From an uncultured Gammaproteobacteria bacterium (GTDB taxonomy: Bacteria; Patescibacteriota; Patescibacteriia; UBA10025; JAHIVO01), in the NCBI GenBank assembly GCA_964415025.1, contig CAYPXF010000005.1:1484-65483 (forward strand): a stretch of DNA of 64,000 bases, read 5' to 3'. The notes beneath the pieces were generated by a model. The model was not told the origin of the DNA and ran no database searches. It was given only the letters and a program-made list of their open reading frames with translations. Positions 355-24,976 of the stretch are shown one piece after another (the stretch's first letter is position 1; the number at the start of each line of letters is the position of its first letter). A program made the position numbers and the translations under genes.

Positions 355-1263
355 TTACTGTGCCATGGTTCGCAAAGCCGCAATACGTTCATCTATGGGC
401 GGGTGTGTCATAAATAATTTTGATAACCCCTTTTTCGCCTTACCGCCGAACGGGTTAGCTATATAGAGATGAGCCGACGCATTGTTTGCCTTGCGCATGG
501 GGGCAGTATTAGAAGTTTTTATTTTTTCCAGTGCGTTAGCCAATCCGTCTGGATACCGCGTCAGCAATACGCCCGAAGCATCAGCCAAGAATTCCCGTTT
601 ACGTGATACTGCCAGCTTAATCAGCTGGGCGATGATTGGCGCCAGAATAAGCAGTGCGAGGCCGACGATCATGAGTATCGCCTGCGCCTGACCGCCTTCG
701 CGAGAGCTGCGCCGGCTGCCGCCGAAAATTGATATCCGGAAAAACCAGTTAGAAAGCAGCGCCACAATCCCGACACAGATAATCACCAGTGTCATCAGAC
801 GGATATCATAGTTTTTGATATGTGATAACTCATGAGCAAGCACCCCTTCCAGCTCCTCATTTTCGAGTTTTTCAATGGCGCCGGTCGTTACGGCGATAGA
901 GGCGTGTTCTGGATCACGTCCGGTGGCAAAGGCGTTTATTGCTGGATCATTGATGATATGCACTTTTGGCATAGGTAATCCTGCGGTAATACCCAGATTT
1001 TCCACCATGCGGTATACGTAGGGATTGTCTTGTTTGGTGATTGGTTTGGCTCCGGCTGTCCACAGCGCAACTTTATCTCCAGAAAAATAGCCAAACAAAG
1101 ACATGCCAATGGCGATAATCAGCGCAATGACCAGTCCACCGTACCCGAATTCGGTTAATTGCCCGAATACCCAGCCCAAGAAGCCGATCAACACTATAAA
1201 CACCGCAATCAGGAAATATGATTTGCGTTTGTTGCTGCTGATTTGTGTGTACAGTGTGGCCAT
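355..1263 (-). CDS. htpX: M48-family zinc metalloprotease HtpX
   Basis: 302 aa; HEXXH zinc motif (HELSHI), multiple TM helices, C-terminal FLADASG block typical of HtpX. Confidence 0.9.
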   Translation of the reverse strand: MATLYTQISSNKRKSYFLIAVFIVLIGFLGWVFGQLTEFGYGGLVIALIIAIGMSLFGYFSGDKVALWTAGAKPITKQDNPYVYRMVENLGITAGLPMPKVHIINDPAINAFATGRDPEHASIAVTTGAIEKLENEELEGVLAHELSHIKNYDIRLMTLVIICVGIVALLSNWFFRISIFGGSRRSSREGGQAQAILMIVGLALLILAPIIAQLIKLAVSRKREFLADASGVLLTRYPDGLANALEKIKTSNTAPMRKANNASAHLYIANPFGGKAKKGLSKLFMTHPPIDERIAALRTMAQ

Positions 1264-1328
1264 ATTAAGCGATGTTAAAGGGCCGGCTTTGTTAAGCGGC
1301 CTAGTAGGATGCGTGTTTATGTCGGAGT

Positions 1329-1886
1329 CTAGAATTCAACTTTGACCGGTTCGCGTTCTGTTGCTTCTTCGATTTCGAAAAAGTCGTATTGCTTAAATCC
1401 GAGCATACCGGCAATCATGTTATTGGGGAAGACCTGGATCTTAGTATTGAAATCGCGTACATTACCGTTGTAAAATCGGCGGGCCGCCTGAATCTTATTC
1501 TCCGTATCAGTCAGCTCATCCTGGAGTTTGGCAAAATTTTCATTAGCTTTCAGATCAGGATAATTCTCGGCTACGGCAAACAAACTTTTCAAAGTATTGG
1601 ACAGGGCGTTTTCGGCCTGTTCTTGCTCTTTGACAGTTTGGGCGTTCATGGCGGCAGAACGTGCCTGGGTCACTTTTTCGAAAAGCTCGCGTTCGTGTTT
1701 AGCGTATCCCTTGACAGTGTTCACGAGATTTGGGATTAAATCATAGCGCCGTTTGAGCTGCACATCGATATCTGACCATGCTTCGTCAGTACGATTACGC
1801 AGCTTGATCAGGCTGTTATATACGCTGATGAACCATAACACTGCCATGACGATGAGGGCGATTACGATCCAAACGATTGTGGGCAT
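1329..1886 (-). CDS. lemA: LemA family membrane protein
   Basis: 185 aa; N-terminal TM helix then LemA signature ([33 protein letters not shown]...[10 protein letters not shown]). Confidence 0.85.
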
Positions 1887-1906
1887 ACTTGTTTTAGGTT
1901 AGTTAT

Positions 1907-2440
1907 TTATGGTGTTATTAGCACAGTGAGGGCTGATGCAGAGACTTCAAACGAGTCGCTCATATCCTCGTCAGATCTAACAATTACCCGATTGCCTGTT
2001 TTGATTTGTTCCGGCAAAATCTGTTCCTGTTCTGTGCTGTTTTGGCCCGGCGATGAAGGATTTGTCAAATCCCAGCGGGTCAGGATTGTAGCTGGCTTCA
2101 GTATAGCAGTAATAGTATCAGTATTCAAAGCAGCTGCGGTATGGTCATCGACACTGATTTGTACGTCGTTATCATTTATATTTGTAACTGTGCCATACCA
2201 ATTTTGGGTATTGGCGCCGAGAATATGTTGCGTTTGACTGACATCGATAACCGGGGCACTCCTCGGCTGGTTATCAGATTTGTTTTTTCCTATTGAAAAG
2301 GAAGCAATTGTTAATGTAATAATGATCAGTACCCCTAATGATATAAAAAAAACAATTTCAGCAGCGGGAATATGTATGTTAGCAGGGGATGGCTTTGGTT
2401 GTTCGGAGTCTATTTTTTGTTTTGTTTTGTTGTTTGACAT
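1907..2440 (-). CDS. hypothetical membrane-anchored protein
   Basis: 177 aa ORF on the same strand as and adjacent to lemA/htpX; single TM helix after a Lys/Pro-rich N-terminus; no recognisable domain. Confidence 0.55.
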   Translation of the reverse strand: MSNNKTKQKIDSEQPKPSPANIHIPAAEIVFFISLGVLIIITLTIASFSIGKNKSDNQPRSAPVIDVSQTQHILGANTQNWYGTVTNINDNDVQISVDDHTAAALNTDTITAILKPATILTRWDLTNPSSPGQNSTEQEQILPEQIKTGNRVIVRSDEDMSDSFEVSASALTVLITP

Positions 2441-2586: not shown

Positions 2587-5421
2587 GTGTTCACAAACCG
2601 AAAACAATTTATAGGTATGTATAAATGGGCTTTTTTTAGCCTATTTTTTTGTCTGGTAATTATTGCTTTAGGCGTGCACCAAATCCATGCAAAAGTTATC
2701 GATCCAGAGGCGGCGCCACCAGAGAAAAATATGCCTGATTATATAAATATTGGCGGTGAGCATCAGGCTAAGCAGGGTGCCTTGCGATTGGGCAGTGATG
2801 CTGTGGGCGATCCGTATGAATACCAGCTCGAAGTAGTCGGTGAGGGCGGATTAATATCTAATACTAGCATAGAAAAAGACTTACGAGTTGAGTCAAATAC
2901 GGCCAGTGATCCGGCTCTGTATGTGGACGCAATCAATAATAAGGTATGTATAGGGGCATGTCTGGACCAATCAAATACCAGATTAGAAGTAAGCGGCAAT
3001 ACTCGGATAGACGCAGATCAATCTGAATATGGGATCAGGTCATATAGTGCTGGCCAAGCACTCTATGGCTGGGGCAGTACGTACGGTATCCAGGGGGTTA
3101 GCTCATCAGCTGACGGATATGGTATTTGGGCATCAAGTCCGCTAAGCACCGCGCTCGAAGGAGTAAATATTAATAATGCTTACAGCGGGGTGGCCGGATT
3201 TAGTACAGATGGCATCGGTATTTACGGCGCCAACACGAATTATCAGGGATTATGGGCCGGATATTTTGACGGACGAACTGAATCAACCAGGCAGGTCATT
3301 GGCCGTAAGTTTGTGCCTACCTCATATCCGCCGGCGATGGTGCAAAACACGTCAGGCCAGGTCGCTGGCTCGTATACGGTCAGCGGACGGCGGCTGGTCC
3401 ATGCCGATAGTTCTTTTGTCTGGACTAGTACGACCGCCGGATCGCTGTACAAAAGCAGAATCAGTGATATGCAGGATCAGTGGGAAGCAAGTCTCGGCGC
3501 TGAAACAACTGACGGGCTATATGACAGTAATAATTTTTGGGCAGTCATTCCTGCGAGCCAGGAGGTAAAAAAGATTAACGCTGATACCGGTATCGAGAGC
3601 TGTTCGTACACTGCCAGCAGTACTCCAACCGCCGTCACGTTTGACGGTAGCAGCTACTGGGTAGCTACTGATGAAGGACGGAGCGTAATCCAATTAGACA
3701 GCGATTGTAACGAAGTGCAGACAATTTTTATCGGCTATAATCTGACCGATATTATTTTTGATGGCACCTACTTATGGGCGGTATCAGATATCAGTGAGTA
3801 TATTATCAGCATAAATCCGTCTAATCCGTCCGGCAGCGAAGCCACTGCGTATGCGGGTATTAGTGGTAATAATCCTGGCAGGCTTTTGTTTGATAATTAT
3901 TATTTCTGGGTAATTAATCAGGATGATGATACTGTTACTGCGTTTTACCTGCGTGACGGCATGGCCAGGAAGTTTAATACCTATCAGACCGGCACCGGAC
4001 CAGCTGATCTGGTTTTTGATGGTATGCATGTATGGATTATGAACACGGATGGCCAGAGCGTATCCCGTTTACTCGCTGCTGATCCAACGCAAAAAAAAGA
4101 TATTCAACTGAATTTTGCACCGACCGGCATCGGATTTGACGGGACATATATCTGGATTTCAGGCGATAGCAGTATGGTGAAGCTGTATTCTGGAGTCGGG
4201 CATGGCACGATTGATGTTAGCAATGCTCTAGCCCTGCAAACAGCCACGGCCTCGATAATCCAGCGAGGTTACGCGGCTCTGACCGGATCTGCACGCGTCG
4301 GTGGGAATGCCTCATTTGCCGGTGATATAACTACCGCCGCTAACAGCTGGGGAACGGCGCAATCAGGAGATGTAATCATGAGTGATTATGGTGATACCTG
4401 GGCGCAGATGGGCAATCCCGGCATCAGTGAACGCTGGGTATTGTCATTTCTAGAGACTGATGACGGTACGATTTATGCCGGTACGTTTGATCAGGGAAAT
4501 GTGTATACCTATGATGCTGATACAGATACTTGGACTAATACCGGCGATTTAACCGGCGCAACCTATGTGTATGATCTTATCCAGACAGCAGACGGCACAA
4601 TATACGCCAGCACCGGCCAGAATGGTGATGTGTTTACCTATAATCCAGGCACAGATACGTGGACCAATACCGGAGAAATAACTGGCGCAGTCGATGCTAC
4701 CAGTTTATTACTGGGCCGCGACGGCGTACTCTATGTCGGAGTCGAACGTGCGGCAGGCACGGCACTGTTTTCATATAATCCCGGTACAGACATATGGACA
4801 GAGCGTGTGGCAATACCCGGGACAATACATTTATCCGATATGATCCAAGCTCGTGACAATATATTGTATATTGCCGCTCGTCCGTCAGATACGCCTGACC
4901 AAGGCGATGTTTACAAATACGACCCAGTCGCTGACACGCTGGTTAATTCCGGAAATTTGGCTGGAGCAACACGTGTCTATGATTTACTAGAAACAGCTGA
5001 CGGTACTATCTATGCGGCCACTCATCCAAATGCACAGGTCTTTGAGTACGACCGCTTTACCGACTCCTGGACAGGTTTAGCAGTGCTGCCGTGCGGAAAC
5101 GGGGTATGGTCGCTGCTGGAAACAAATGACGGTGCGCTGTATGCTGGCACAAACTGCAACGGGGACGTGTATGCCTATGACTTTATTAATGACCAATGGG
5201 ATATCGTGGGTTCAATGGGCAGTGCGACGCTGACAACGGCACTGTACGAGACAAGTGATCACCGGATCATGGCCGGTACTGCGTATGATACCGGCGTATT
5301 TCAGCTGACCATCACGCCGCTTTCGGCAGGCACGTACAGCTGTCCGGACGGTCATTTTGTTACTAGCATCACTACTAATAGCATAGACCAGGTTATCCGC
5401 GTTGATTGCCGGCCATTATAG
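2587..5421 (+). CDS. giant surface protein paralog A (944 aa): signal anchor, conserved N-terminal Gly-rich module, FDGTYLW-type beta-propeller, Kelch-like beta-propeller, C-terminal two-Cys module ending CRPL
   Basis: GTG start 7 nt after a GGGGGA RBS; N-terminal TM; six ~45-aa blades with [FY]DG.Y.W[VI]; six repeats DGTIYAGT...V[YF]TY[ND]..TDTWT; shares N- and C-terminal modules with the next two genes. Confidence 0.8.
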   Translation: MFTNRKQFIGMYKWAFFSLFFCLVIIALGVHQIHAKVIDPEAAPPEKNMPDYINIGGEHQAKQGALRLGSDAVGDPYEYQLEVVGEGGLISNTSIEKDLRVESNTASDPALYVDAINNKVCIGACLDQSNTRLEVSGNTRIDADQSEYGIRSYSAGQALYGWGSTYGIQGVSSSADGYGIWASSPLSTALEGVNINNAYSGVAGFSTDGIGIYGANTNYQGLWAGYFDGRTESTRQVIGRKFVPTSYPPAMVQNTSGQVAGSYTVSGRRLVHADSSFVWTSTTAGSLYKSRISDMQDQWEASLGAETTDGLYDSNNFWAVIPASQEVKKINADTGIESCSYTASSTPTAVTFDGSSYWVATDEGRSVIQLDSDCNEVQTIFIGYNLTDIIFDGTYLWAVSDISEYIISINPSNPSGSEATAYAGISGNNPGRLLFDNYYFWVINQDDDTVTAFYLRDGMARKFNTYQTGTGPADLVFDGMHVWIMNTDGQSVSRLLAADPTQKKDIQLNFAPTGIGFDGTYIWISGDSSMVKLYSGVGHGTIDVSNALALQTATASIIQRGYAALTGSARVGGNASFAGDITTAANSWGTAQSGDVIMSDYGDTWAQMGNPGISERWVLSFLETDDGTIYAGTFDQGNVYTYDADTDTWTNTGDLTGATYVYDLIQTADGTIYASTGQNGDVFTYNPGTDTWTNTGEITGAVDATSLLLGRDGVLYVGVERAAGTALFSYNPGTDIWTERVAIPGTIHLSDMIQARDNILYIAARPSDTPDQGDVYKYDPVADTLVNSGNLAGATRVYDLLETADGTIYAATHPNAQVFEYDRFTDSWTGLAVLPCGNGVWSLLETNDGALYAGTNCNGDVYAYDFINDQWDIVGSMGSATLTTALYETSDHRIMAGTAYDTGVFQLTITPLSAGTYSCPDGHFVTSITTNSIDQVIRVDCRPL

Positions 5422-5432
5422 ACTAAAGAATA

Positions 5433-8400
5433 ATGAAACATTTTGTCACATCGTATAATCGCAGAATATTATTACCAATAGGTTTGCTGGTTATTGTTTT
5501 AGCTCTGGTCGGAACCGTGAAGATAACTTATGCTGCCTGGGAAGAACCGCAGGCAGAACCGCCTGACGATAACATGTTTGCCCCGCTGGATGTGAGTGAT
5601 AATAACCAGGCTAAGCGCGGCCGCCTCCTGCTCGACCCGCTGTACAATCCGCTGGGCGCAATACCTGAAATTGATTATCCGCTCGAAGTCAGAGGTCCAC
5701 GCGACGTGTATATCAATAAACTCGAGATAGTAGCCGAAGGCGACCTTAGTGTCGATACAGATACGCTCGTGGTAGACGGTACTGGCCATATGGTCGGTAT
5801 GGGCACTGGCAGCCCGGACGAGCTGCTGGATATCCGCGGTTATGGCGCGACACTAGGCAGCGACAGCCAACTAATCAGCGGCAATGCGCTGGTAGTGACT
5901 GATGTGGGCAAATACGGAGCGTATGGCCTGTCACAGGGAGACAGCATTGCTTCAGTGCTTGGTGAGAGTGATAGCGGTTCAGGCATCTACGGTCTGCACA
6001 CTGCTGGTGGTACAGGCATCATGGCGCAGAGCGAATCCGCGTCTGCGGTCCGGGGAACAGTGTCAGCAGCGGCAGGCAGTCCGGTCGCTGCTGGTATATA
6101 TGCCCAGGCGCAGGGGCTGGGCTCGTGGGCCGGGTATTTTGCCCAGCGTGTGTATGGCACGCAAGAAGTAGTCGGATCAACATTTTTACCGACTGCATTA
6201 CCCTATTCGAGTATTCCGTATTCAGTTGGCTGGAAAACGCAGGACATCGCCCAAAGCTATGTACCGGCTTTTAGTAGTATCGCTTTTGACGGACGGTATC
6301 TCTGGATAAATAATTATACAGCCTATTGGAGTCAGGCTCCATATATTCACAAAATCGATGCCTATACTGGCGAACAGGTAGAAGCATTTAAGGTTTCTGG
6401 TGCGGAACACGCCTATAATAGCCCGGGCATGGGGACTATGGACTATGCTGGCGGCTATATTTGGATGGCAAATCCGTATAAAGACAACGAAGGGATATAC
6501 CGTATTGACCCGCATAGCCAGGATTATGACACTACGCTGTACTCTGTCGGAACCCATGATGCTGATGGCGATGGTAATACTGATGACGGCGAAAGTGACG
6601 GTCCGTTTGATTTTATATATGATGATATTACCTATCCTGATAATACGTTTGTCTGGGTAGTCAGTGATTACGAGGACAATGCCGCTGCTTCTCGCTATTA
6701 TATTACCAGACTTCAGCCAGCGGCCGATGAATACGGTTTTTGCTCTGACCCATCACAGCTGACGCAGGCGGGCTGTACTGGAACATGGTATGATGACTTG
6801 AGCGAGCTTGATTTCAGTGGCGCGACTTGTCCGGTATGCGTTAATTGTACCGGCACGACTACTACCGAACCATGCAGTGTGCCTGGATATTATACTGAAG
6901 CAGAATGCACCAACCCTTCGGTCGGAGGCGCCTGGGATCCAGATGCAAATTTTGGTTATGCCGAGCTGCGCTATCCCAGCGGCATCACTTTTGACGGTAC
7001 AAAAATCTGGGTCAGCTTTGCTGGCGGCGGCGCGTATGCCAGCGGGCTGGTTTCATTTGACGCGGCCGATCCTGTTAATACCGCGACAACGCATTGTGCC
7101 GGACCAAATCGCAACTTGCAAACAATTGACTGGGGCAGCGGCATGCTATGGGCAGGGGATAAACAACGGGAAAACGAAGTTGTCAGATTATTTGCTATTG
7201 ATCCAGCCGCTGATCCGCTGTATCTGGGCATTGATGATTATGGCTCGTTTGGAAGTGAGTTGGGAAGCGGTACAATATCTATCCTGGCATATGATGAGAA
7301 GTCAGCAGGCGGGCCATATCTCTGGGTTATTAATCCTTTTCATTTCGCAAAATTTTCTATAAATCCGGTGACAAAGACTTTGGCCCCGGCACATGTGTAT
7401 AGCCTCTATAATAGCGGGTATAATTTTGCCTTTGCTGAAAATGAAGCCGGCGAACGGACTGTATGGACTACTCATGGGAACGTTGGCGGTATTATCGAAC
7501 ACTTAGTTGATACGAGCGTGGCGCTCCCCGGTAACAGCCCGTATGCTCCGTATTACCAACGTGCGTTTTTGCCCGTGGGGGCTAGTGTTGGAGGAATGGT
7601 TTTTGACAGTACCTATATTTGGACAGCAGATCGTAATACTAACAAATTAAGTAAATTTAACATTGCTGACGGAAGCAAAATGGGTGATTATGACGCCGGA
7701 TGGTATCCGCTCGGCATAGTGTATGACGGCCGCTATATTTGGACAGTAAATAGTGATGAATATGGCTATAAACCAAACACAAACGATCTGACCAAATTTG
7801 ATCCAGTGAATGGTGAAATCGTAGACGAGTATAAAATCACAAATTATAACGGAGAAATGGACATAGCGCGCGGTGGATATATTGATATGCGTTTTGACGG
7901 ACAATATATATGGATTACCTTTCCGGACAGTGATGAAATTGCCGTATTTGATCCTGATACCATCGATACCTCCGGTGTAACTTTTTATGATGATACAGAC
8001 CATGGTATTGATAATCCGTACCGTCTCGTGTATGACGGGGAGTCTATGTGGGTATCGCATATTGATAATAAGATTTCGCGCGTTCAATCGGACGGAACTA
8101 ATGCGTTTACCAGGACATTTGATATAATTGACGGCGGTGTAGCTTATAATATTAGCGCGCTGGAATTTGACGGCACTTATCTTTGGATCGGCACTAAATT
8201 TATGGACACGCAAGGACGGAGTGTGTATAAATATGACCCAGCAGGAGATGTAATTGTTGATGAATTTACTGTATATAATGATTCGGGCATATGTTTAGCT
8301 GGTGAGCGGCAGTATCAGTATTGCCGCAGTGATGCTGACTGTCCTAGCAGTACATGCGACGCAAAAGGCTCTCGGGTAACCGATATATTATTTGATGGTA

Positions 8401-9305
8401 CGCATGTGTGGATTAAGCATGGGGGTAGGAATGATGATGCCGGTAGTATTGAGTGTAATGATGGCATAGACAATGACGGGGTAGGACATTGCGATATCTC
8501 GCCGTACGCGGTATGTACGAGCGACGCGGAATGTACTCCTGGTACCTGTGACTTCACTGATCAGGATGATGACCGTGGCGGCTGGTGTGAAAACACTTTT
8601 GATTTACATGAAGGATCGCGGTGCAATGATGATCAGGATAATGACCAGGATGGTACATGCGATCATGATGGGTGCAATGGATTGCCGGCAGATCTTGATT
8701 GTACTGATGAATTTTCTGATGCCGAGGGCAATCCTGAATGCAGCGACGGCTGGGATAATAACGGCGACGGACTGTGCGACTATGACGGCGCTGTCGGCGC
8801 TCCCGGGTGCAGCGGTAAGCCAGATCCGGGCTGTTCGAGCGCGAGTGATGCTAGCGAGGCAATACCTTCGACGCATTCAGCGCATTTAACGCGCATAATA
8901 CCGGCGACTGGAGCAGTGGTTGAGAGTCTGTATTATGATCGCTATACCCAAGTTTCAAATCATTTAGTATATGATGGCAGCAAAATCTGGATCGGAGATG
9001 GTAGTACCACGAGCCGTGAAACAGTGCATAGTTATTATGCCGGCACTGGACTGCGGACTGATTTGTCAGATACTGTCGTGCGGCAGGGCAGTTTTCCGGG
9101 CACGGCACAGATCGGACTGGCCAGCTACCATGGCTCACTGACTGTGGATACTGCCCTGGAGGTAATCGGCGATCTGGTCGTGACTACCAATATTTGGGGC
9201 GGTACTGCTGACGATGTGAAGGCGTTTGGCACGGCCTGTGATGACGGCCAGTTTATAAAAGGGATTGACACCACCAGCGGCCAATCCCAATGCCGACCAT
9301 TATAA
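5433..9305 (+). CDS. giant surface protein paralog B (1290 aa): same N-terminal module, FDG.Y.W beta-propeller repeats, Ca-binding Cys/Asp (TSP3-like) repeat region, C-terminal two-Cys module ending QCRPL
   Basis: starts 12 nt after paralog A stop; N-terminal TM; motifs NMFAPLDV..QAKRGRLLLDP, GIYG/GIYA repeats, SWAGYF; CNDGIDNDGVGHCD...CSDGWDNNGDGLCDYDG repeats; C-terminal NIWGGTADDV...C..GQFIKGI...QCRPL. Confidence 0.8.
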   Translation: MKHFVTSYNRRILLPIGLLVIVLALVGTVKITYAAWEEPQAEPPDDNMFAPLDVSDNNQAKRGRLLLDPLYNPLGAIPEIDYPLEVRGPRDVYINKLEIVAEGDLSVDTDTLVVDGTGHMVGMGTGSPDELLDIRGYGATLGSDSQLISGNALVVTDVGKYGAYGLSQGDSIASVLGESDSGSGIYGLHTAGGTGIMAQSESASAVRGTVSAAAGSPVAAGIYAQAQGLGSWAGYFAQRVYGTQEVVGSTFLPTALPYSSIPYSVGWKTQDIAQSYVPAFSSIAFDGRYLWINNYTAYWSQAPYIHKIDAYTGEQVEAFKVSGAEHAYNSPGMGTMDYAGGYIWMANPYKDNEGIYRIDPHSQDYDTTLYSVGTHDADGDGNTDDGESDGPFDFIYDDITYPDNTFVWVVSDYEDNAAASRYYITRLQPAADEYGFCSDPSQLTQAGCTGTWYDDLSELDFSGATCPVCVNCTGTTTTEPCSVPGYYTEAECTNPSVGGAWDPDANFGYAELRYPSGITFDGTKIWVSFAGGGAYASGLVSFDAADPVNTATTHCAGPNRNLQTIDWGSGMLWAGDKQRENEVVRLFAIDPAADPLYLGIDDYGSFGSELGSGTISILAYDEKSAGGPYLWVINPFHFAKFSINPVTKTLAPAHVYSLYNSGYNFAFAENEAGERTVWTTHGNVGGIIEHLVDTSVALPGNSPYAPYYQRAFLPVGASVGGMVFDSTYIWTADRNTNKLSKFNIADGSKMGDYDAGWYPLGIVYDGRYIWTVNSDEYGYKPNTNDLTKFDPVNGEIVDEYKITNYNGEMDIARGGYIDMRFDGQYIWITFPDSDEIAVFDPDTIDTSGVTFYDDTDHGIDNPYRLVYDGESMWVSHIDNKISRVQSDGTNAFTRTFDIIDGGVAYNISALEFDGTYLWIGTKFMDTQGRSVYKYDPAGDVIVDEFTVYNDSGICLAGERQYQYCRSDADCPSSTCDAKGSRVTDILFDGTHVWIKHGGRNDDAGSIECNDGIDNDGVGHCDISPYAVCTSDAECTPGTCDFTDQDDDRGGWCENTFDLHEGSRCNDDQDNDQDGTCDHDGCNGLPADLDCTDEFSDAEGNPECSDGWDNNGDGLCDYDGAVGAPGCSGKPDPGCSSASDASEAIPSTHSAHLTRIIPATGAVVESLYYDRYTQVSNHLVYDGSKIWIGDGSTTSRETVHSYYAGTGLRTDLSDTVVRQGSFPGTAQIGLASYHGSLTVDTALEVIGDLVVTTNIWGGTADDVKAFGTACDDGQFIKGIDTTSGQSQCRPL

Positions 9306-9311
9306 TCTCTT

Positions 9312-11795
9312 ATGTTTCACCATACTAAACAATCACACTATATCATCGCCGGCATCACGGTAATTATCGGCGTGGCGTGTGTTATTATTCCGCAGGCGGT
9401 ACAGGCAGTGTGGCTTGAGCCTGACAGCACGCCGACTAATGAGCAGTTTGACGCGCCGATCACGGCCGGATCGGAGAACCAGACCAAGAAAGGATATATA
9501 GAGCTGGATCCTGATTATTCACCGACCGATGAAACATCGTTTAGTTTTGGACCGGAGCGGCCACTCCATGTGCATGGAGAGGGCGCGCGGTTTGATGTGC
9601 CGACCACATATAGTGATATCCTGACCGTGGATACGGACACACTATATGCCAACGCAATTTACGACTGGGTCAGTATTGGCACCACGGCTATGCGGGATGA
9701 TTATTTGTTTGCCGTCGAGGGCGGCACTGTCCAGATCGGTACTAACGACGAGTCAGTGGCCGGACGCGGGCTAAGCGCCTACAGCAGTGATAGTGTGGGT
9801 ATTTATGCTGATGCCGGCGGCACAGGGACAGCAGGCGTGTATGGCTTGCGTTTACTCGGCAATGGCTTGGGCGTGCGGGGTACGAGCCAGACCGGTGTGG
9901 GCGTGCGCGGCGAAAGCCCGGACGGGTACGGCATCTATGCCGAGACCGCTTCGGCTACTAATGCGGCAGTGTACGGCGAGAACGCTCTGGGCGGCTGGGC
10001 TGGATATTTTGACGGACGATTAGGCAGTGATGCGGACATAGCCGGCGCGCAGTTTTTGAGCACCAAACTTGGCAGTTCGCTCATACCGCAGACATCGGGC
10101 TACAAGGTCGGTACGTACCAAATATCTGACGGGCCGGTATCAGGCGGTATTGCAGATTTAGTGTTTGACGGTACGTATTTATGGGCTACGAATAAATATG
10201 GCACAATCGATGATGAACATGACCGGAATCTTTTCAAAATGCGAGCGTCTGATGGAGAGTTGGTGCAATCATATTATATCGACGAATGGCCTCACCGCAT
10301 GGCGTATGACGGACGCTATTTATGGCTAGGTTATTATCACGGCAACGCGCTCTTCAAGGTCGACCCCCAAACCGGGGAAAAAATGGCAGATTGTTCAACA
10401 GTGCCTTCGCCACGGGATCCGCTGATGTATTGGGGCACGTCTGAATCGCCCGGATTGGCGACTAGTGTTGAGGATGGGGACGTGTATATTTGGACGGCGA
10501 ATGACCGCGGCGGCGATGTGACGAAATTTGATCAAGGCTGTAATCTAGTGGGAGTATATCCGGCCGGTACTACTGGGGAGGGTAATTATGAAAATCGTCT
10601 CAATAGCGATGGCGAACGGTTAAGCGTAAGCAATGCCATCTATGCTGATGAGTATATATGGGTACTCACACCAAATATCTGCCGGGAGGCAGGCGCGACT
10701 CCATCTACAAATCCCTTTATATCAGCATCGGCCATACGGTATTGCAGCGATGACACGCACTGTCCAGCAGGAGATGGCTATGACGGCTGCATAGATCAGC
10801 CTACCCAGCTGGTTAAAATGGATGCCACAACCGGAGTTGTCCTGGACAGCTACGATATCGGCATGACTCATCCAGCACAGATAGTGTTTGACGGCGTATA
10901 TTTATGGATAGCAAATGCCACAGCCCCGGCCAGCCAAACATATATTGCTAAAGTGCGCGCTTCTGACGGTCAGTGGATGGGGTATATTGATGTGCCGAGC
11001 CCGGTGACTGATTTAGTCTTCGACGGCACGTATATCTGGGCATCTGGTAATGGTAATCCCACAGGATCGATGTATCGAATTCCGGCATCTGAAACCGATT
11101 TTAGTAGTCCTGATATCTCCACCTATACTAATACACTCTTGACCGGTTGGTGGGATGGCGATTTAGTGTTTGATGGTACCTATATCTGGCATTTATCACA
11201 GTGTGCAGAAGATCCAAGTGGTCCAGGTTGTTATTCAAATTGTGACGAGTATCCTCCAGGCAGCGGGAATACTAATTGCCCGTTGTCAGTTACTAAGCAT
11301 TTTAGCGGTGCCGGGCCGGGCACTGTAGATACTGGTAGCAGTGTCGTACTGCGCCAGCGCACAGGGGTATGTATGGATCTGTCTCAACCAACGATAGAAA
11401 GTATTTATACAGAGATAGAGTGTGTTTATGATTCGCACTGCCCCAACTCATGGCCCTGCAGCACTCAATATTCTAGTCAGTCCGGCAATATGAATATCAC
11501 TGGCGGCCTGGTTGCCCAGATCGACCATTGCGAGAGCGATGGCACACACTACTACAGCCGTGCTTGTGACGAGGACGCTGACTGCGATGGCCTGACCAAC
11601 GGGCAATGCGTCGGCGGCGGCGGCCGCGTGGGCACTGACGTAAAGGCAGACAATAATGTCTGGGGCGGCACTGATGACGTACAGGCACTGAACGCCGCCG
11701 GCGACACGGCCGTGTGCGCCGCCGGGCAATTTGCCAAGGGACTTACTATTGACAGTAATGGCAAAATTACCCAAATGATTTGCCGGGAATTATAA
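9312..11795 (+). CDS. giant surface protein paralog C (827 aa): same N-terminal module, FDG[TV]Y[LI]W beta-propeller, Cys-rich C-terminal region ending ICREL
   Basis: starts 6 nt after paralog B stop; signal peptide ...AVQA/VW; motifs FDAPITAGSENQTKKGYIELDPD, GIYA/GVYG/GVRG repeats, GWAGYFDGR; C-terminal NVWGGTDDV...C.AGQFAKG...ICREL. Confidence 0.8.
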   Translation: MFHHTKQSHYIIAGITVIIGVACVIIPQAVQAVWLEPDSTPTNEQFDAPITAGSENQTKKGYIELDPDYSPTDETSFSFGPERPLHVHGEGARFDVPTTYSDILTVDTDTLYANAIYDWVSIGTTAMRDDYLFAVEGGTVQIGTNDESVAGRGLSAYSSDSVGIYADAGGTGTAGVYGLRLLGNGLGVRGTSQTGVGVRGESPDGYGIYAETASATNAAVYGENALGGWAGYFDGRLGSDADIAGAQFLSTKLGSSLIPQTSGYKVGTYQISDGPVSGGIADLVFDGTYLWATNKYGTIDDEHDRNLFKMRASDGELVQSYYIDEWPHRMAYDGRYLWLGYYHGNALFKVDPQTGEKMADCSTVPSPRDPLMYWGTSESPGLATSVEDGDVYIWTANDRGGDVTKFDQGCNLVGVYPAGTTGEGNYENRLNSDGERLSVSNAIYADEYIWVLTPNICREAGATPSTNPFISASAIRYCSDDTHCPAGDGYDGCIDQPTQLVKMDATTGVVLDSYDIGMTHPAQIVFDGVYLWIANATAPASQTYIAKVRASDGQWMGYIDVPSPVTDLVFDGTYIWASGNGNPTGSMYRIPASETDFSSPDISTYTNTLLTGWWDGDLVFDGTYIWHLSQCAEDPSGPGCYSNCDEYPPGSGNTNCPLSVTKHFSGAGPGTVDTGSSVVLRQRTGVCMDLSQPTIESIYTEIECVYDSHCPNSWPCSTQYSSQSGNMNITGGLVAQIDHCESDGTHYYSRACDEDADCDGLTNGQCVGGGGRVGTDVKADNNVWGGTDDVQALNAAGDTAVCAAGQFAKGLTIDSNGKITQMICREL

Positions 11796-11800
11796 TTTCC

Positions 11801-14800
11801 ATGGACCAATCAATACGACACAATAATACTTTTTCTAAAATTGTTTTCGCATTATTAAGCATTGCCAGCCTAATAGTGGTTATCGGCCTGCTCTATATTG
11901 TCATGGCCGGTCAGACGCAGGACGCGACTGAAACAGATCCGGAAACAGTACTGGATCCTGCCCTGGCCCAGGAGGTGCGCAATTATGAAATCGTGGACAA
12001 TGGCGACGGTACGCATTCAGCATTGTACGGTGTGGGGCCGATCCAGTATTTGACAAACAATCCGGGCGAGTACGCGGCTATTGATTCGACTATTGTCGAG
12101 TCAGCGCGCGAGGGCGTGGCCTATGAAAATACTACTAATGTTATCAACACCTTTTTCGGCAGTGATGTCACTGATCCGAACTTTATTTCCTACCAAATAC
12201 CGGGTGAGCGCGGCGTCGGTTTTACGTTTCCTGATGCCCAGCAGTCTGCCTGGGCCGTAGCAGAAAATGTAGCCACCTATCCGGAGCTGTATCCGGGCAT
12301 GGACGCGCGGTATACTATCCAAAACGATGTCATGCTGGAGGAATTGATAGTAGACAATAAGGAAGACGCCAGTAATTTTCACCGGCTTGACCAACAGGTC
12401 ACTCTGCATGACGTGTATTTCCGCGAGCAGGATGACGGCTCAATCACGTTCCATGATGCTGATACCAGGCACGCCGTGTTCGTCATACCCCGGCCGGTGC
12501 TGTATGAAGACGGCGATACATTGCGCCAGAACGCGAACTACGGACTGCATTTTGAGATATCGCGAACAGACACTGACACGTATTTAATTTCGAAAGTTAT
12601 TGACGACGGAGGGAAAGAGTGGCTCGAAAAAGCTGACTACCCTATAATTATAGATAATACGTATATTGGTGGATTTAATGCGGCTGTTGGCTCGACTAAG
12701 CGGTATAAGAGAATCGGCGGCGCGAGCTGGTCCTGGAGTATCATGATGGATTCTGGTATATATGGGTACCCTTTTATTACTACAGGAAAATACACAAACG
12801 GCTGTTCATTAGGAAACAGTAGTTGTATACAACATGAATATCATGGACATTATACTTTTCATACGTATGACGTAGGTGCGCCCTATACCCAGGATCAGGT
12901 CGTGGGGGCTCGGTTCCAGGTGTCTATGGTAAGGAGTGATGACGATGGCGAGTATCTCGCTCCGGTGAATGTATATTCTGGGGCAAACGCATGGGATCCA
13001 AATAAATCATTTAGTGAATCTTTTACTGCGGCGGAAATTGAAGACCGCTGGAATGCACTCACCAGCATGCATCAGGAAGTAGATATAGATACTGCCGGAC
13101 TGCCAACCTATACTAATCGCGGGATGTGCTATCCTGGCAGTTCTCCGGAGCAGTGTCGGCGGGTAGTGGACATAGACCTAAATTCTATTGGTATGACCAG
13201 CAGTCAGGATCATACTCAGATAATGTTGGATGCACCATCAGCCTCGTACCTTAATTGTGGGGGGTCAAGCTGTAATGATTTTCATGGAGTTATTAGCTGG
13301 CGGCCAGTATCATCTACTGATATGCCGTATCCTAAGCTGGAGGTGATTTACTATCCTGATCCGACGATCCGTGTGGACCCCATGGCTATTCCTGAGGGTG
13401 AGAAGAAAATGGAAATTCAGATAGATGATGATTTTACGGATGATAGTAGCTACAAATTGGAGCGCTCATTTGACGGGTCAGGCGGACCGTGGACCGAGGT
13501 GTGCAGTAATATTGCTACCGGCGCGAGCGGGACGTGCCAGTCAGGCATCACCTATGACTGTACCGGCATTACCGAGGCAGGCACGTCCGGATACTGTACC
13601 GTGACGGACGATATCAGCGTGTCAGGCGGCGGACCGCGGTATTCTGACAAGCATACCTGGTACCGAGCACGAGTGGTGGGAACATCAGGCTATGTATCTG
13701 ACTATAGCCCGGTGGCGCATGATTATACGTTTGCTTATCCCTATCCAGAGGCTCCGCCAAATTCTGACAGCAGCGAAAGCTGGGATAAAATTAAAATTTG
13801 GGCACCTGGGAGCGGTAATGAATACTCAAACCAGGGTTCATTCTTAACTATTGACCCAGAGCCGACAAAGTATTGCATGGCGACATATACTCCCTCTATG
13901 CTTGGGTGGTACAATCCTCCAACAAACGATTGGCGGTATCATCATCATTCATCAGCAGCGTATTCTGATGTTTGGAACGAATATTCAGAAGGCACATATG
14001 ATGGACGTGATTATATTAATAACAATGACGGCGATAATCTTGCCTGCAAAACAATGGCTCAGTGGATATACTTTGGCGGGTATCCTTATTATAGCATTGG
14101 CGAAGTAGAGGATAGTTATCGTTTACGGCCAAATACATATTATGCTTTTTCCTTTTTATCGCAAAATACCCGTGATGGCACTGTAAATTCCCCTATTGTT
14201 ATGCCGGAGTATGCGCAAACCAGGGCGCGGGTACCGTCTAAACCAATCCAGAATAATGGCATAACAACGCAAAACGCACTGGGATTGGCGCTCGACAGCA
14301 CGCCACAGTATGCCCCGACAGAGTACGTGAATGACCCTAATGGCAATACGACATATGCTATGTATGTCGAGGAACTTAACAGGTATTTTAACTCTGATAC
14401 TGGTACACTGTCATCGTCTGCCGTATGGCGGCGTGAATCTGACTGGGGCGGAGCAGGCGGTATTGCGTACGGTGGTTTTGCTCCGGGGACTTGCTACAGT
14501 ATCAAAGCAAAATCACGCAATGGTGCAAGTATAGAGGGGGAAACACCAGCCCGGATTTGGTCAGATACTGGCCAATACTGTACCAAAATGGCCGTACCTT
14601 CGTTATCCGTGGCTTGCCAATACACTGACGCGGATGACGACTATAATTGCGATATCACCCTGGATGCCAACGGTAATCCAGCCGGCACAGAATACAAGTT
14701 CGAATACTGTTTGCCGGAGAGCGGGAGTAATTGTTCTGCCGGATCTGGTGACTGGCAGGAAATACTCATAGGAGGCAAGGAGTGGAATTCGTATAACCAC

Positions 14801-17800
14801 GGCGATAGTATTAATGTATCTGAAAATACACCTGGATATTCATTTCTGAATTGTGAAGATGCCAACATGAAACAAATGTTCCGTGGCTATGCCAGACGGA
14901 ATAGTTCGTCACCAAGCACTGACCCATCTCCTGCTGCGGAAGACACATTGCCGCCATGCCAGCCGTGGAGTTTAGGCCATGCTAATAATCCTCAATATAG
15001 CAAAATCCAATGGCAATGGTGGGCACCGATTGCCGCTGATTATACTGGTAATCCTGTACATCACTATAATGTGTATGAACCTACATATCTAGCACGCCAT
15101 TGTGACGCGGGTAATGCGAGCGATCTGTACTGTGATAATCCGTTTGATGTGCAAATAGATGATTCGTGCTCCGGGCCGTTTTGCTTATTCTCGTATACCC
15201 AGGAGCAATACCAGCGTATACCAAAGTTTGACAATAACACCCAGTACAGTACGAAGGTGCGCGCGGCAGACAGCCGGGGGCGCTCAGGCAGGCCTTCGGC
15301 AGAAGCATGGGCCTACACTGCTATTGAAACACCGACCGGTATTACCTTTGATGACGTACAGACTGATACGATCGCGCTTAATGGCGACGGGACGTTCAGT
15401 AATTTTTCGATCGGATCGACTGGACTGCAGTTTCAGGAAACCACGTCTCATAACGGCGGCGGTGCTGACAGCGGCGAACTTGGTTTTACGCCGTCCGGGT
15501 GGCTGTCTAACGGCCAAAGCACAACTGACAAAGGACTGGACCAAAATACGAAATACTGCTACCAGGTGCGGGCCCGCAATGCCGAGGGGCACCTGTCGGG
15601 GCCGGGAGATATTACCGGTTTTGTGCCGGCTAGTGCGGAATGCCGGTATACGCTGGCAGGGACGCCGAACATGCCTATCCTGGAGCGTATTGACGGCGAA
15701 ACAATTAATATTACGGTACGTGATACTGATGATAATCCGCACGGCTCGCCAACTGATAATGGCGGAGAGACTCAATATGCCCTGTGTATCACAAAATTCG
15801 ATGATGATAATGTGGTAGAATTCGAAAAATACGTCCGGCCGGACGGGACGATAGATTACGCCGGCGTTGACTGCGCATCTGGAAACGGTACTGGCTATTG
15901 GCAGTCATACGACGGCTGGGGCAATACGGCCGGAGTGACTATCGGTAGTCTAGAAGCGTCCGCCCGGTATGATTTTAAATTCAAGGCGCGCAACGGCGAC
16001 CATATAGAAAACGGCGCTGACAGTTCTGGCTGTACTGCTAATGAGACCTGCATTGAAACAACGTTTGGCCCGGAAGCGACACTGTTCCTGGTGAAGAATA
16101 ACGTAGTCGGCTGGGCCTGGTCGTCTAATAGCGGCTGGATATCGCTGAACTGCCTGAACCAATTTTACGCGGGCGACCAGTACAGCTGTGACAGCGCTGA
16201 TGACTGGGGGCTGAATACTGATTTTGTCGAGGGACGGGACGTGAATCCGATCGAGGGCTATGCCTGGTCTGCGTCCGGACGCGCCATAGACAAAGTATGG
16301 ACAGGCAGCAATATATTAGTAGACTATGCCCTACCGAGCCGCGTACAGCACAGTGCGCGTGCCGGCTCTTTTATCTGGGCTACGGCCGGTGATGCCTTGT
16401 TGCGCATTGACGCGGCCAGTGGCGTGGAATACACGTGCGTCGGCAGTGCCGAGCTGTCTAATGACTGGGAACGCTGTACTTTTGGTGATGATTTGCGCGA
16501 TATAGTCTATGATGGCACCTACCTGTGGGTCAGCTCGTATAATGACAGCATTATCTACCAGGTCAATCCGGTCGACGGCACTGTTGCCGCGGTCGACAGC
16601 GGTTCGATACAGCTCCAGGGGCTGACTACTACACCGCAGGGCATAACATATGACGGTACCTACCTGTGGGTGACTGATCCGACCAATGACCGCGTGCTAC
16701 AGGTCGATCCAGCGGCCGGCAGTGAGGTAGATCAAATTGATGTCGGGGACCAGCCTCAGTATCCGTATTATGACGGTAAATACATATGGGTGGCCAACGC
16801 CGGTGAGACACACAGCGGCCAGGTTTCGCGGATTAGTGTTGCGGATAACACGGTGACATCGATCGATCTTAGCAATGATAACGCGTATGATATTAGTTCA
16901 GATAACGAACATATTTGGATCAGTCATGCGAATACGGAGGTGATAACTATTATTTCTCCGGATGGTTCTGATCAAGCTACTATTAATACCGATGGAGCCG
17001 ATTCCCGTGGTATAGCCTATGCTGATGGCTATATATGGGCGGCTGATCAGGACGCAGATACGATATACCAGATCGATATAGTAAGCAGGGATGTGGTCGC
17101 CGAGCATGAGGTCGGCGGGAATTATGATCCACTGCATATGAGTATTGATGACGCATATATCTGGGCCAGTACGGACGACGGTGAGGTCGGCGGACAGTAT
17201 ATAGCGCTGCAGCGGCTCGAAACCGGTGTATCACCGGATAAGGTCGGCCTGGGCTGGCTGACATACTCGCGCGGCGTCTGCTCTGATAACGCGCAAAAAC
17301 CATGCGACCCTGACCGTAATACCTGCGGCGGTACAGCTACCTGTGAGCCAGCAGCCGGACTGCCGCCAGACAGTACGGCCTATGGCTACTGCTATACAGA
17401 CGGCACGCCAGATGAACGGTACGGATTATGCTCTGTCAATACGGGTGCTGTCTGTACCGACAGCATTGCCTGCCCTGATCCAGAGGAGACGTGTATTTAT
17501 CACACATGCCAGACCGGTGATACCTGTCCGGATTATGGTAGCGGAACAGAGGTATGTGTGGCTATGGCAACCACGAATTTTGACGGGTTAACACGCGAAG
17601 TACGGGGCTATGGCCGCTCGCTGACCATGGCGCAGCGCGGCGCGGCGCTCGGCTTCGATGACTGGGGCTGGATCAGTATGGACGGCACGTATACAGACGA
17701 AGCCGATGCAGTGGCGCGCTACGGCGTTACCGCCACTGACGTGGATTCACAGCTGTTTCTGGGCGATCCTGACGTCAATCCAGACGACGTCATCCTGTAC

Positions 17801-22811: not shown

Positions 22812-22846
22812 ATATTGACAAAATAGTAAATATATACCATAAAAAG

Positions 22847-24975: not shown

Positions 24976-24976
24976 T

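What the first reader, a model, noticed from the sequence alone, without database searches (positions are those of the whole stretch)
5300..11795. Conserved C-terminal two-cysteine tail (...C..GQF.KG......QCRPL) ending the three paralogs
Paralog B ends NIWGGTADDVKAFGTACDDGQFIKGIDTTSGQSQCRPL. Paralog C ends NVWGGTDDVQALNAAGDTAVCAAGQFAKGLTIDSNGKITQMICREL. Paralog A ends SCPDGHFVTSITTNSIDQVIRVDCRPL. An extreme C-terminal tail with a spaced Cys pair and a C-R-[PE]-L end looks like a sorting, anchoring or secretion signal rather than a catalytic element. It does not resemble LPXTG, Por or PEP-CTERM signals. The fourth giant protein lacks it.
Basis: seen in the sequence. Interest (0 to 1): 0.6.

Follow-up and report, generated by a model that had tools for sequence, protein, structure and literature searches.

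The report
Disulfide-clasped C-terminal cap on fibre adhesins
The shared two-cysteine ending is real: it is a small, previously unannotated folded end-piece on fibre-like surface proteins that ultrasmall Patescibacteria encode next to their type IV pilus genes, not a sorting signal.

Summary
Proteins A (2587-5421), B (5433-9305) and C (9312-11795) end exactly as quoted, and D lacks the tail. A tail profile finds 121 representative proteins (E<=1e-3) among 1.84 billion. In the 141 proteins collected, 93 carry the whole tail, and all of them stop at C-x-x-[L/I/M] (Cys -4 in 93/93, Arg -3 in 78/93, Leu -1 in 88/93).

It is not a linear signal. It has no hydrophobic or basic segment and no CTERM-model hit. 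AlphaFold2 gives a confident three-stranded sheet (pLDDT 87-95). Six relatives carry 370-910 residues inserted at the hairpin turn yet still end ..L-x-C-R-x-L. The core also recurs as tandem repeats elsewhere.

A/B/C are Sec-type secreted proteins built as a conserved N-terminal module, beta-propeller(s), a stalk and the tail. They sit in a conserved block of fibre genes, D, then pilM and the type IV pilus operon. Positional equivalents in other Patescibacteria end instead in a Peptidase_S74 chaperone or carry YadA-head repeats.

Best reading (0.5): a disulfide-clasped cap and assembly nucleus at the distal end of MAT-like, probably trimeric, adhesin fibres. Trimerisation, the disulfide and pilus attachment are inferred. 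It is a new domain variant of a known kind.

The parts
2587..5421 (+). Paralogue A (944 aa): signal peptide, conserved N-module, YncE-like propeller repeats, Kelch/Reg_prop-type propeller, tail
4321..4368 (+). A: probable displaced N-x-W-G strand of the tail (..GDITTAANSWGTAQ..). It is separated from the hairpin by the roughly 300-aa Kelch-type propeller. The match is weak.
   Evidence: profile positions 2-17, 2.2 bits; the L003 orthologue gives 7.4 bits at the same place
5341..5418 (+). A tail hairpin, C919-L944 (CPDGHFVTSITTNSIDQVIRVDCRPL)
5433..9305 (+). Paralogue B (1290 aa): signal peptide, N-module, propeller repeats, Cys/Asp-rich repeats, stalk, tail
9189..9302 (+). B tail, N1253-L1290 (NIWGG...C..GQFIKG...QCRPL). 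AF2 places three strands in it, with pLDDT 87-95 over the last ~35 aa.
9312..11795 (+). Paralogue C (827 aa): signal peptide about aa 1-32, N-module about aa 33-260, confident beta-propeller about aa 260-640, Cys-rich stalk, tail
11655..11792 (+). C tail, N782-L827 (NVWGG...C802..G805QF..KG...C824REL)
11780..21490 (+). Giant protein D (3236 aa from the TTG; the first ATG is at 11801). It has an N-terminal TM segment, fn3, BNR-like and propeller repeats, and no tail. Its C-terminal region is conserved immediately upstream of pilM in 59 of 80 Patescibacteria loci.
21657..39533 (+). Type IV pilus cluster on the same strand: pilM 21657-22811, pilB 26742-28493, response regulator 28512-28901, pilC 28940-30145, pilins 30319-30837 and 34279-34761, prepilin peptidase 35332-36084, minor pilins 36081-39533
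355..2440 (-). Divergent M48 peptidase, LemA and 177-aa genes. They are syntenic with the fibre block in every relative examined.
59997..60791 (+). DsbA-like thioredoxin-fold protein, which would allow extracytoplasmic disulfide formation
   Evidence: DSBA E 3.4e-16

Best explanation
The tail is an autonomous C-terminal mini-domain of about 35-45 residues. Its consensus is D-x-x-V-x-x-N-x-W-G-G-[ST]...C-x-x-G-x-[FY]-[VI]-K-G-[IV]...[IL]-x-C-R-x-L-COOH. It forms a three-stranded antiparallel sheet, and the two invariant cysteines probably clasp the last strand to the 'C-x-x-G' turn that precedes the hairpin.

It terminates a family of Sec-exported, fibre-like adhesin proteins of Patescibacteria. 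These have a conserved N-terminal module for retention on the cell, beta-propeller(s) and a stalk in the middle, and a variable C-terminal end. They resemble the Bdellovibrio 'mosaic adhesive trimer' (MAT) fibres and phage tail fibres.

Proposed mechanism: after export and oxidation (a DsbA-like protein is encoded nearby), the clasped hairpin caps the end of the stalk and acts as a foldon-like C-terminal folding and registration nucleus for the probably trimeric fibre. It also forms the distal tip, and extra domains can be displayed from the hairpin turn.

Shown here:
- the strictly C-terminal conservation of the tail;
- its domain-like behaviour;
- the mosaic exchange of C-terminal ends, including S74;
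- the conserved linkage fibre genes-D-pilM.

Inferred, not shown:
- the disulfide;
- trimerisation;
- the distal orientation of the tail;
- any functional tie to the pilus.
For: Position and conservation:
- 93 proteins carry the complete tail and all end C-x-x-[LIM]. Both Cys are invariant.
- High-information residues lie on both faces of the last two strands: C(-4) and I(-6) against R(-3) and L(-1); F, K, I against V.

Domain behaviour:
- AF2 on the last 85 aa of B with 24 tails gives pLDDT 87-95 and strands 56-59, 68-74 and 79-84.
- Six B-type relatives keep ..N.WGG..C..G.FAKG.., then insert 370-910 aa at the turn, and still end L-x-C-[RH]-x-L. L004's B-type shows the same split.
- A-type proteins have a propeller between the N.WG strand and the hairpin.
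- 100-aa proteins consisting only of a TM/signal segment, a short stalk and the tail exist (P0126, P0132).
- The core recurs as tandem repeats in fibre-like proteins with ..ATALAADP..C.AGQYA.GI.A.G.L.C.

Fibre class and mosaicism:
- A, B and C share a conserved module straight after the signal peptide.
- Positional equivalents with the same N-module (BLASTP 1.5e-6; HMM hits) end in Peptidase_S74, the chaperone of endosialidase (E 1.5e-16 and 6e-15). Another equivalent carries YadA_head repeats (E 4e-22). Both are hallmarks of obligate trimers.
- In L005 the three paralogues have other ends.
- The MAT family has the same logic: an invariant N-domain after the signal peptide, S74 or independently folding non-S74 caps, and 'tip swapping' (PMC10769870).
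- The AF2 monomer of full-length C is confident only for the propeller. The N-module and stalk score below 50, as is common for obligate oligomeric fibres.

Genomic support:
- Exactly three tail-bearing genes (A-, B- and C-type) occur per locus in the window, L001, L003 and L004.
- A DsbA-like gene lies in the window.
Against: - No oligomer was modelled or measured, so trimerisation rests on analogy and on S74/YadA relatives in other lineages.
- Homology of the N-module to the Bdellovibrio MAT N-domain was not tested, because no MAT sequences were available.
- Model coordinates could not be inspected, so the disulfide geometry is unverified. In a simple hairpin register the second Cys pairs opposite K71/F69, not the first Cys.
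- Low AF2 confidence in the N-module and stalk may only reflect the shallow 16-sequence alignment.
- The near-invariant R(-3) and L-COOH could equally point to recognition by a partner.
- No significant structural analogue was found in the PDB or BFVD (best E about 1).
Confidence: 0.5

Rival explanations
1. Docking strand for the type IV pilus. Like the last ~10 residues of PilC/PilY1, the extreme C-terminal strand (..I-x-C-R-x-L-COOH) would insert by beta-strand complementation into a PilK-like minor pilin (window 38082-39533) or into D, mounting the propeller proteins on the pilus tip.
For: - A/B/C are large Sec-type propeller proteins with an invariant extreme C-terminus.
- They lie in one same-strand block with D and pilM...pilB-pilC-pilins-pilD-minor pilins.
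- The fibre genes-D-pilM linkage recurs in a divergent genome (L005). D-like C-termini sit next to pilM in 59 of 80 loci.
- There is experimental precedent for C-terminal strand complementation in PilC/PilY1, MshQ and CpaL (bioRxiv 10.64898/2026.02.14.705861).
- A Saccharibacteria propeller-bearing PilX2 has been proposed as the pilus adhesin (PMC12206443).
Against: - The last strand is already paired in cis in the AF2 model and is probably disulfide-locked.
- Positional equivalents in other lineages lack the tail. Some end in S74, which is autocleaved, so the element common to all of them is the N-module, not the C-terminus.
- There is no PF05567 (PilC/PilY1) hit and the propeller is generic YncE/WD40-like.
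- The genes lie upstream of pilM, not after the minor pilins.
- Three paralogues per genome would compete for one tip.
Confidence: 0.15
2. Ligand-binding tip. The tail itself would be a small lectin-like or receptor-binding knob at the distal end of the fibre, contacting host-cell glycans.
For: - The N-[QV]-W-G-G-[ST] motif is the only thing that pulls anything out of the PDB: all four repeats of the OAA-family lectins BOA (4gk9) and MBHA (4fbr).
- The C-terminal position matches the adhesive tips of MAT fibres.
- Extra domains are displayed from the hairpin turn.
Against: - The lectin matches are not significant (E 0.4-2.6) and are limited to a 6-residue motif.
- The tail has 3 strands, not the 10-stranded OAA barrel.
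- It is highly conserved across very divergent proteins and in all three paralogues. This is unlike host-specific receptor-binding tips, which diversify.
Confidence: 0.15
3. Heterotrimer clasp. The three single tails of A, B and C would assemble with one another into a prism-like heterotrimer, tying the three paralogues into one complex.
For: - Exactly one A-, one B- and one C-type tail occurs per locus in four genomes, each with type-specific signatures and hairpin lengths (Cys spacing 17 against 21-22).
- The core motif occurs in exactly three copies in many unrelated small proteins. One of them weakly matches the three-repeat beta-prism VOMI (PF03762, E 1.2e-4, below cut-off).
Against: - In L005 the three paralogues do not share one end type.
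- Many lineages have one or two fibre genes.
- The S74 and YadA relatives are homotrimer systems.
- No modelling of complexes was possible.
Confidence: 0.1
4. Sorting or processing signal recognised by an unknown enzyme. This includes recognition of the free C-R-x-L carboxy-terminus, for example by a PDZ-type protease.
For: - The distance to the C-terminus is absolutely fixed, with near-invariant R(-3) and L(-1).
- A conserved M48 peptidase/LemA pair lies divergently upstream in all relatives.
Against: - There is no TM or basic segment and no hit to any CTERM sorting model.
- The element is a folded domain that tolerates large insertions.
- It is replaceable by unrelated ends in positional equivalents that keep the M48/LemA neighbours.
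- No sortase, exosortase or rhombosortase was found among the ORFs scanned.
- The resemblance of C-x-x-L to a CaaX box is superficial: the middle positions are R and P/G/E, and the protein is secreted.
Confidence: 0.05

Closest known systems
Bdellovibrio bacteriovorus MAT (mosaic adhesive trimer) fibre superfamily, non-S74 'capping/tip' domains (Caulton et al. 2024, PMC10769870)
   Same: Both have a signal peptide followed directly by a conserved N-terminal module, a long fibre or stalk, and a family split into members ending in Peptidase_S74 and members ending in small, independently folding, sometimes disulfide-containing C-terminal caps. Both show 'tip swapping' between lineages and belong to a bacterium that must recognise other bacteria. 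A link to type IV pili has been suggested for MAT fibres too.
   Different: Homology of the N-module to the MAT N-domain was not tested. A/B/C carry whole beta-propellers in mid-chain. The tail (about 40 aa, 3 strands) is much smaller than the beta-sandwich, TNF-like or C-type-lectin tips described for MAT fibres. The organism is a monoderm-like Patescibacterium, and the genes are fixed next to the T4P operon.
T4 fibritin foldon and the C-terminal intramolecular chaperone (Peptidase_S74) of phage tail spikes and fibres
   Same: Both are short C-terminal elements at the very end of a fibre, beta-hairpin based, and proposed to nucleate and register folding. S74 occupies the same position in positional equivalents (L035, L047).
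   Different: There is no sequence or significant fold match. The tail is disulfide-clasped and retained (no SDxxxK protease motif), and trimerisation has not been shown.
[quoted passage not shown] 2026, bioRxiv 10.64898/2026.02.14.705861)
   Same: Both involve large Sec-exported propeller proteins encoded with T4P genes, whose last ~10 residues are conserved and functionally critical.
   Different: There is no PilY1-domain match. The strand here is predicted to pair in cis within a mini-domain. The genes lie upstream of pilM rather than after the minor pilins, and the C-terminus is not conserved across positional equivalents.
OAA-family lectins (BOA 4gk9, MBHA 4fbr) and VOMI beta-prism repeats
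   Same: The tail shares the motif N-Q-W-G-G-S with OAA repeats. Its C-P-x-G-x-[FY]-[VI]-x-G core resembles three-fold repeats in proteins that weakly match VOMI.
   Different: The matches are below significance (E 0.4-2.6; VOMI at 22.7 bits against a cut-off of 25). There is a single copy per chain, and the strand count differs.

Membership tests
C-terminal sorting signals (LPXTG/sortase, PEP-CTERM/exosortase, GlyGly-CTERM/rhombosortase, T9SS Por CTD) | Signature motif followed by a hydrophobic helix and a basic cluster (or an ~80-aa beta-sandwich CTD for T9SS) | tested here: not met
   The chain ends 3 residues after the second Cys and has no hydrophobic stretch.
C-terminal sorting signals (LPXTG/sortase, PEP-CTERM/exosortase, GlyGly-CTERM/rhombosortase, T9SS Por CTD) | Match to curated CTERM/sorting-domain HMMs | tested here: not met
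   NCBIfam scan of A-D at E<=0.1 gives no such family. Pfam scan of the tails at E<=10 gives nothing relevant.
C-terminal sorting signals (LPXTG/sortase, PEP-CTERM/exosortase, GlyGly-CTERM/rhombosortase, T9SS Por CTD) | Cognate sorting enzyme encoded in the genome or neighbourhood | tested here: inconclusive
   None was found among the 30 window ORFs scanned. The whole genome was not available.
PilC/PilY1 pilus-tip adhesins | PilY1-type C-terminal propeller domain (Pfam PF05567) | tested here: not met
   No hit in the Pfam scan. Foldseek finds the propeller of C closest to YncE, designed and WD40 propellers.
PilC/PilY1 pilus-tip adhesins | Gene follows the pilV/W/X (I/J/K) minor-pilin genes | tested here: not met
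   A-C lie upstream of D and pilM. The minor pilins are at 36081-39533 and are followed by ligA.
PilC/PilY1 pilus-tip adhesins | Extreme C-terminal strand complements the PilK-family pilin | not testable with these tools
   Needs multimer modelling or biochemistry. Only monomer AF2 was available.
MAT-like mosaic trimeric fibre adhesins | Signal peptide followed immediately by a conserved N-terminal module shared by all members | tested here: met
   A, B and C and their homologues share W-x-E-P...P-P..N...Q-x-K-G-x-L and ..W-A-G-Y-F-x-G-R. An N-module HMM finds 14 ORFs in 11 other pilM loci. Homology to the Bdellovibrio N-domain itself was not tested.
MAT-like mosaic trimeric fibre adhesins | Family contains both S74-terminated members and members with other C-terminal caps | tested here: met
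   L035 and L047 equivalents have Peptidase_S74 (E 1.5e-16 and 6.1e-15). The window, L001, L003, L004, L007 and L018 have the Cys tail. L005, L019, L020, L022 and L023 have other ends.
MAT-like mosaic trimeric fibre adhesins | Intertwined trimeric beta-helix/prism fibre | not testable with these tools
   The AF2 monomer gives pLDDT below 50 for the N-module and stalk. No oligomer prediction was available.
Fibritin-foldon-type C-terminal trimerisation hairpin | Beta-hairpin element of about 30 aa at the extreme C-terminus | tested here: met
   AF2 places strands at 68-74 and 79-84 of the 85-mer plus a third strand at 56-59, with pLDDT 87-95.
Fibritin-foldon-type C-terminal trimerisation hairpin | Forms a trimer on its own | not testable with these tools
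   No multimer modelling and no experiment.
OAA-family lectins | Significant profile match and a 10-stranded barrel built from ~67-aa repeats | tested here: not met
   E is 0.38-2.6, and only the N-Q-W-G-G-S motif aligns. The tail has three strands.

The most novel reading that the evidence does not exclude
A, B and C would be three arms of one host-recognition device specific to episymbiotic Patescibacteria. Their three single tails would lock together into a disulfide-stabilised heterotrimeric knob. The conserved N-modules would be held by giant protein D, whose C-terminal domain is fixed next to pilM. The fibres would then be deployed by, or on, the type IV pilus machine. That would make this a previously undescribed pilus-coupled adhesin complex.
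Probability: 0.1. Interest if true: 0.8.

Novelty: new variant of a known kind. Interest (0 to 1): 0.5.

Why it matters
Patescibacteria (CPR) live attached to other microbes, and how they recognise hosts is largely unknown. This analysis has three consequences:
- It defines an unannotated C-terminal mini-domain: 121 representative families at 50% identity, with no Pfam, NCBIfam or PDB match.
- It places that domain on MAT/tail-fibre-like mosaic proteins.
- It shows that these fibre genes, together with an unannotated giant protein D, sit in a conserved block directly upstream of the type IV pilus operon across many Patescibacteria.

This yields concrete candidates for host-recognition fibres, and a compact, strictly C-terminal, insertion-tolerant module that could be tested as a folding, trimerisation or display tag. 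If the tail is only a structural cap, the finding is a useful domain definition rather than a new mechanism.

Tried and rejected
- Pfam and NCBIfam scans of the full proteins and of isolated tails found nothing over the tail.
- PHROGs gave only one unknown-function hit in B's N-module.
- A word-indexed homologue search with the short tail alignment found nothing, so that search was wasted.
- Searching with D's C-terminal 1200 aa mostly returned BNR-repeat proteins. One useful orthologue, P0142, led to L005.
- The first genome-contig scan with D's C-terminus found nothing.
- PDB sequence searches with B, the C family, and the tails found no relatives. The OAA-lectin motif hits are not significant.
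- Cluster look-up gave no names or organisms.
- CaaX prenylation box was rejected. C-x-x-L fits formally, but the middle residues are R and P/G/E, the proteins are Sec-exported, and the first Cys is co-invariant.
- Pilin D-region was rejected. It also has a C-terminal disulfide loop, but there is no class III signal or N-methylation motif in A-C, and the proteins are 800-1300 aa.
- Beta-propeller 'velcro' closure by the last strand was rejected. The AF2 propeller (aa 260-640) closes without the tail, which lies about 180 aa downstream.
Full report
**Observation.** The window holds four co-directional, tightly packed genes: A 2587-5421 (944 aa), B 5433-9305 (1290 aa), C 9312-11795 (827 aa) and D 11780-21490 (3236 aa). 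Translation reproduces the three quoted endings exactly, and D ends differently. In a six-frame scan the core C..G.[FYW]..[GS] occurs only three times in ORFs of 80 aa or more, each 22-26 residues before the stop of A, B or C. A, B and C are paralogues at 26-30% identity. They share an N-terminal hydrophobic segment with an A-x-A-type cleavage site (my reading). They also share a conserved module straight after it (W-x-E-P...P-P..N...Q-x-K-G-x-L ... W-A-G-Y-F-x-G-R), repeated 'FDGTYIW' propeller blades and the tail.

**Is it more than chance?** Homologues of C come from Patescibacteria (Kerfeldbacteria and unclassified MAGs) at 25-50% identity, and about 27 of 34 end in the same tail. A 52-position profile of 27 tails (A2) was run against 1.84 billion representatives. 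It finds 121 proteins at E<=1e-3 and 24 at E<=1e-10. Re-scoring all 141 proteins collected gives these figures:
- 93 carry the complete tail and every one stops at C-x-x-[L/I/M].
- Cys is at -4 in 93/93, Arg at -3 in 78/93 and Leu at -1 in 88/93.
- Only two have a short extension.
- N-x-W lies within 45 aa upstream of the first Cys in 80 of 95.

In the window and in three syntenic loci (L001, L003, L004), exactly three ORFs per locus carry the tail: one A-type, one B-type and one C-type. D never carries it.

**What the tail is.** No Pfam or NCBIfam model covers it, including the CTERM sorting-domain models. No PDB sequence is related. The only hits (E 0.4-2.6) are the N-Q-W-G-G-S motif of the OAA-family lectins BOA and MBHA, which is a lead and not evidence.

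AlphaFold2 on full-length C, with 16 sequences, is confident only for a generic YncE/WD40-like propeller at aa 260-640. The N-module and everything after aa 645 score below 50. AlphaFold2 on the last 85 aa of B with 24 tails gives pLDDT 87-95 for the last ~35 residues. It places three strands there: DVKA, QFIKGID and QSQCRP. Foldseek finds no significant analogue in the PDB or BFVD; the best matches, at E about 1, are defensin-sized disulfide sheets. I could not inspect coordinates, so the disulfide is inferred from two invariant cysteines and a DsbA-like gene at 59997-60791.

**Domain-like behaviour.** Four observations argue for a folded module rather than a linear signal.
- Six B-type relatives keep ..GDLVV..N.WGG..FG.SC..G.FAKG.., then carry 370-910 residues inserted exactly at the hairpin turn, and still end ..L-x-C-[RH]-x-L. 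The last strand therefore returns from far away to close the structure.
- In A-type proteins a Kelch/Reg_prop-type propeller of about 300 aa appears to sit between a weak N-x-W-G match and the hairpin. This is seen in window A at 4321-4368 and in the L003 orthologue.
- 100-aa proteins exist that consist of a membrane/signal segment, a short stalk and the tail.
- The core C-x-x-G-x-[FY]-x-x-G...C recurs as tandem repeats in unrelated proteins. These include fibre-like ones with ..ATALAADP..C.AGQYA.GI.A.G.L.C, and proteins with exactly three copies, one of which weakly matches VOMI.

**Context.** Downstream of D, on the same strand, lies a complete type IV pilus cluster. It comprises pilM, three unknown genes, pilB, a response regulator, pilC, pilins, GT2, a Wzy_C/TPR protein, the prepilin peptidase and four minor pilins. 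Upstream and divergent are an M48 peptidase, LemA and a 177-aa gene. The block M48-LemA-x | A-B-C-D recurs in L001, L003 and L004.

In a more distant genome (L005) the order is LemA | three N-module paralogues - D - pilM ... pilB - RR - pilC - pilin. Those three paralogues lack the tail and have other endings.

A scan with a PilM alignment returned 80 Patescibacteria loci. In 59 of them the ORF immediately upstream of pilM has a C-terminus homologous to D's (..IYDGR-x-x-ANTPPGL-x-DF..LP..), with D ranging from about 500 to over 3300 aa. Upstream of D there are one to three genes with a signal peptide plus the W-x-[EG]-P..P-P module and highly variable C-termini. The Cys tail appears in L007 and L018. 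Two positional equivalents (L035, L047) end in Peptidase_S74, the 'chaperone of endosialidase' (E 1.5e-16 and 6.1e-15). Another (L082) carries YadA-head repeats (E 4.4e-22). Both are signatures of obligate trimeric fibres.

**Interpretation.** The architecture matches the logic described for the Bdellovibrio MAT superfamily: an invariant N-domain straight after the signal peptide that retains the fibre on the cell, either S74 or independently folding non-S74 caps and tips at the C-terminus, and tip swapping. A possible interplay with type IV pili was also noted there (PMC10769870).

By that analogy the tail is a non-S74 C-terminal cap. It would be a disulfide-clasped three-stranded sheet that terminates the stalk and probably nucleates or registers assembly, as a foldon or S74 does at the same position. 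It would form the distal tip, from whose hairpin turn further domains can be displayed. High-information residues on both faces of the last two strands fit a buried or oligomeric environment but do not prove one. I put this at 0.5.

**Rivals.**
- *Pilus docking by C-terminal strand complementation (0.15).* The precedent is strong (bioRxiv 10.64898/2026.02.14.705861) and the genomic link to T4P is real. Against it, the strand is predicted to pair in cis. Positional equivalents lack the tail or have a cleaved S74, so the common element is N-terminal. There is no PilY1 domain or fold, and the genes are not next to the minor pilins.
- *Lectin-like tip (0.15).* This rests only on the N-Q-W-G-G-S motif.
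- *A:B:C heterotrimer clasp (0.1).* It is suggested by the conserved triad and the three-copy relatives, but it is not general.
- *Sorting or processing signal (0.05).* It has no supporting feature beyond the fixed C-terminus.

**Novelty and limits.** The tail is an undescribed domain family, but it belongs to a known kind of thing: C-terminal caps on mosaic fibre adhesins. The conserved block of fibre genes, D and pilM in Patescibacteria is the more useful lead for host recognition.

Not shown here: oligomeric state, the disulfide, orientation on the cell, any physical link to pili, and homology of the N-module to Bdellovibrio MAT proteins. The signal peptides were read by eye. The full-length AF2 run used a shallow alignment.

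Noticed in passing
window 11780-21490 (D); L006-L085: D's C-terminal ~60 aa (..IYDGR(V/L)(V/L)ANTPPGL.DF..ALP..) is conserved in the ORF immediately upstream of pilM in 59 of 80 Patescibacteria loci, although D ranges from about 500 to over 3300 aa. This is an unannotated, apparently obligatory companion of the T4P operon. No Pfam hit was found for a short member.
   Followed up: partly
window 11780-11801: D's listed TTG start overlaps the end of C by 16 nt. The first ATG (residue 8, nt 11801) lies just after C's stop at 11795 and is the more likely start.
   Followed up: no
L035 6616-8358; L047 6364-8403; L082 5799-8096: Positional equivalents of A/B/C in other Patescibacteria carry Peptidase_S74 (the phage tail-spike intramolecular chaperone) or YadA-head repeats, that is, phage- or TAA-type trimeric fibre parts encoded beside T4P genes.
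   Followed up: partly
window 31147-34229: A GT2 glycosyltransferase and a Wzy_C (O-antigen-ligase-like) protein with TPR repeats sit between pilin genes inside the T4P cluster, which may indicate pilin glycosylation.
   Followed up: no
window 28512-28901; L005 22545-22952: A stand-alone response-regulator receiver gene lies between pilB and pilC in both the window and the divergent L005 locus.
   Followed up: no
window ~46000-57000: A low-GC block (0.32-0.39, against about 0.48 elsewhere) carries two GAF proteins (one a 7TM histidine kinase), a methyltransferase and an AbiEii toxin (55129-55857). It may be an acquired island.
   Followed up: no
window 59997-60791: A DsbA-like thioredoxin-fold protein is encoded here, relevant to disulfide formation in the many Cys-rich exported proteins of this locus.
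   Followed up: no
window ~8390-8760 (B aa ~985-1110): B has Cys/Asp-rich repeats of the type C-x-D-G-x-D-N-D-G-D-G-x-C-D, which look like calcium- or metal-binding motifs. No Pfam model matched them.
   Followed up: no
window 355-2440 (-); L001, L003, L004, L005: The M48 peptidase, LemA and ~175-aa gene trio is divergently transcribed from the fibre block in every relative examined. Several more distant loci show ClpB and M48 in the same place.
   Followed up: partly
P0089, P0117, P0058, P0103 and similar (not in the window): Another unannotated family has three C-terminal repeats W-C-P-x-G-S-F-[LI]-T-x-x-D-L-D...D-S-P-V-[VI]-G-Q-x-x-C. It weakly resembles VOMI beta-prism repeats and shares the core motif with the tail.
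   Followed up: partly
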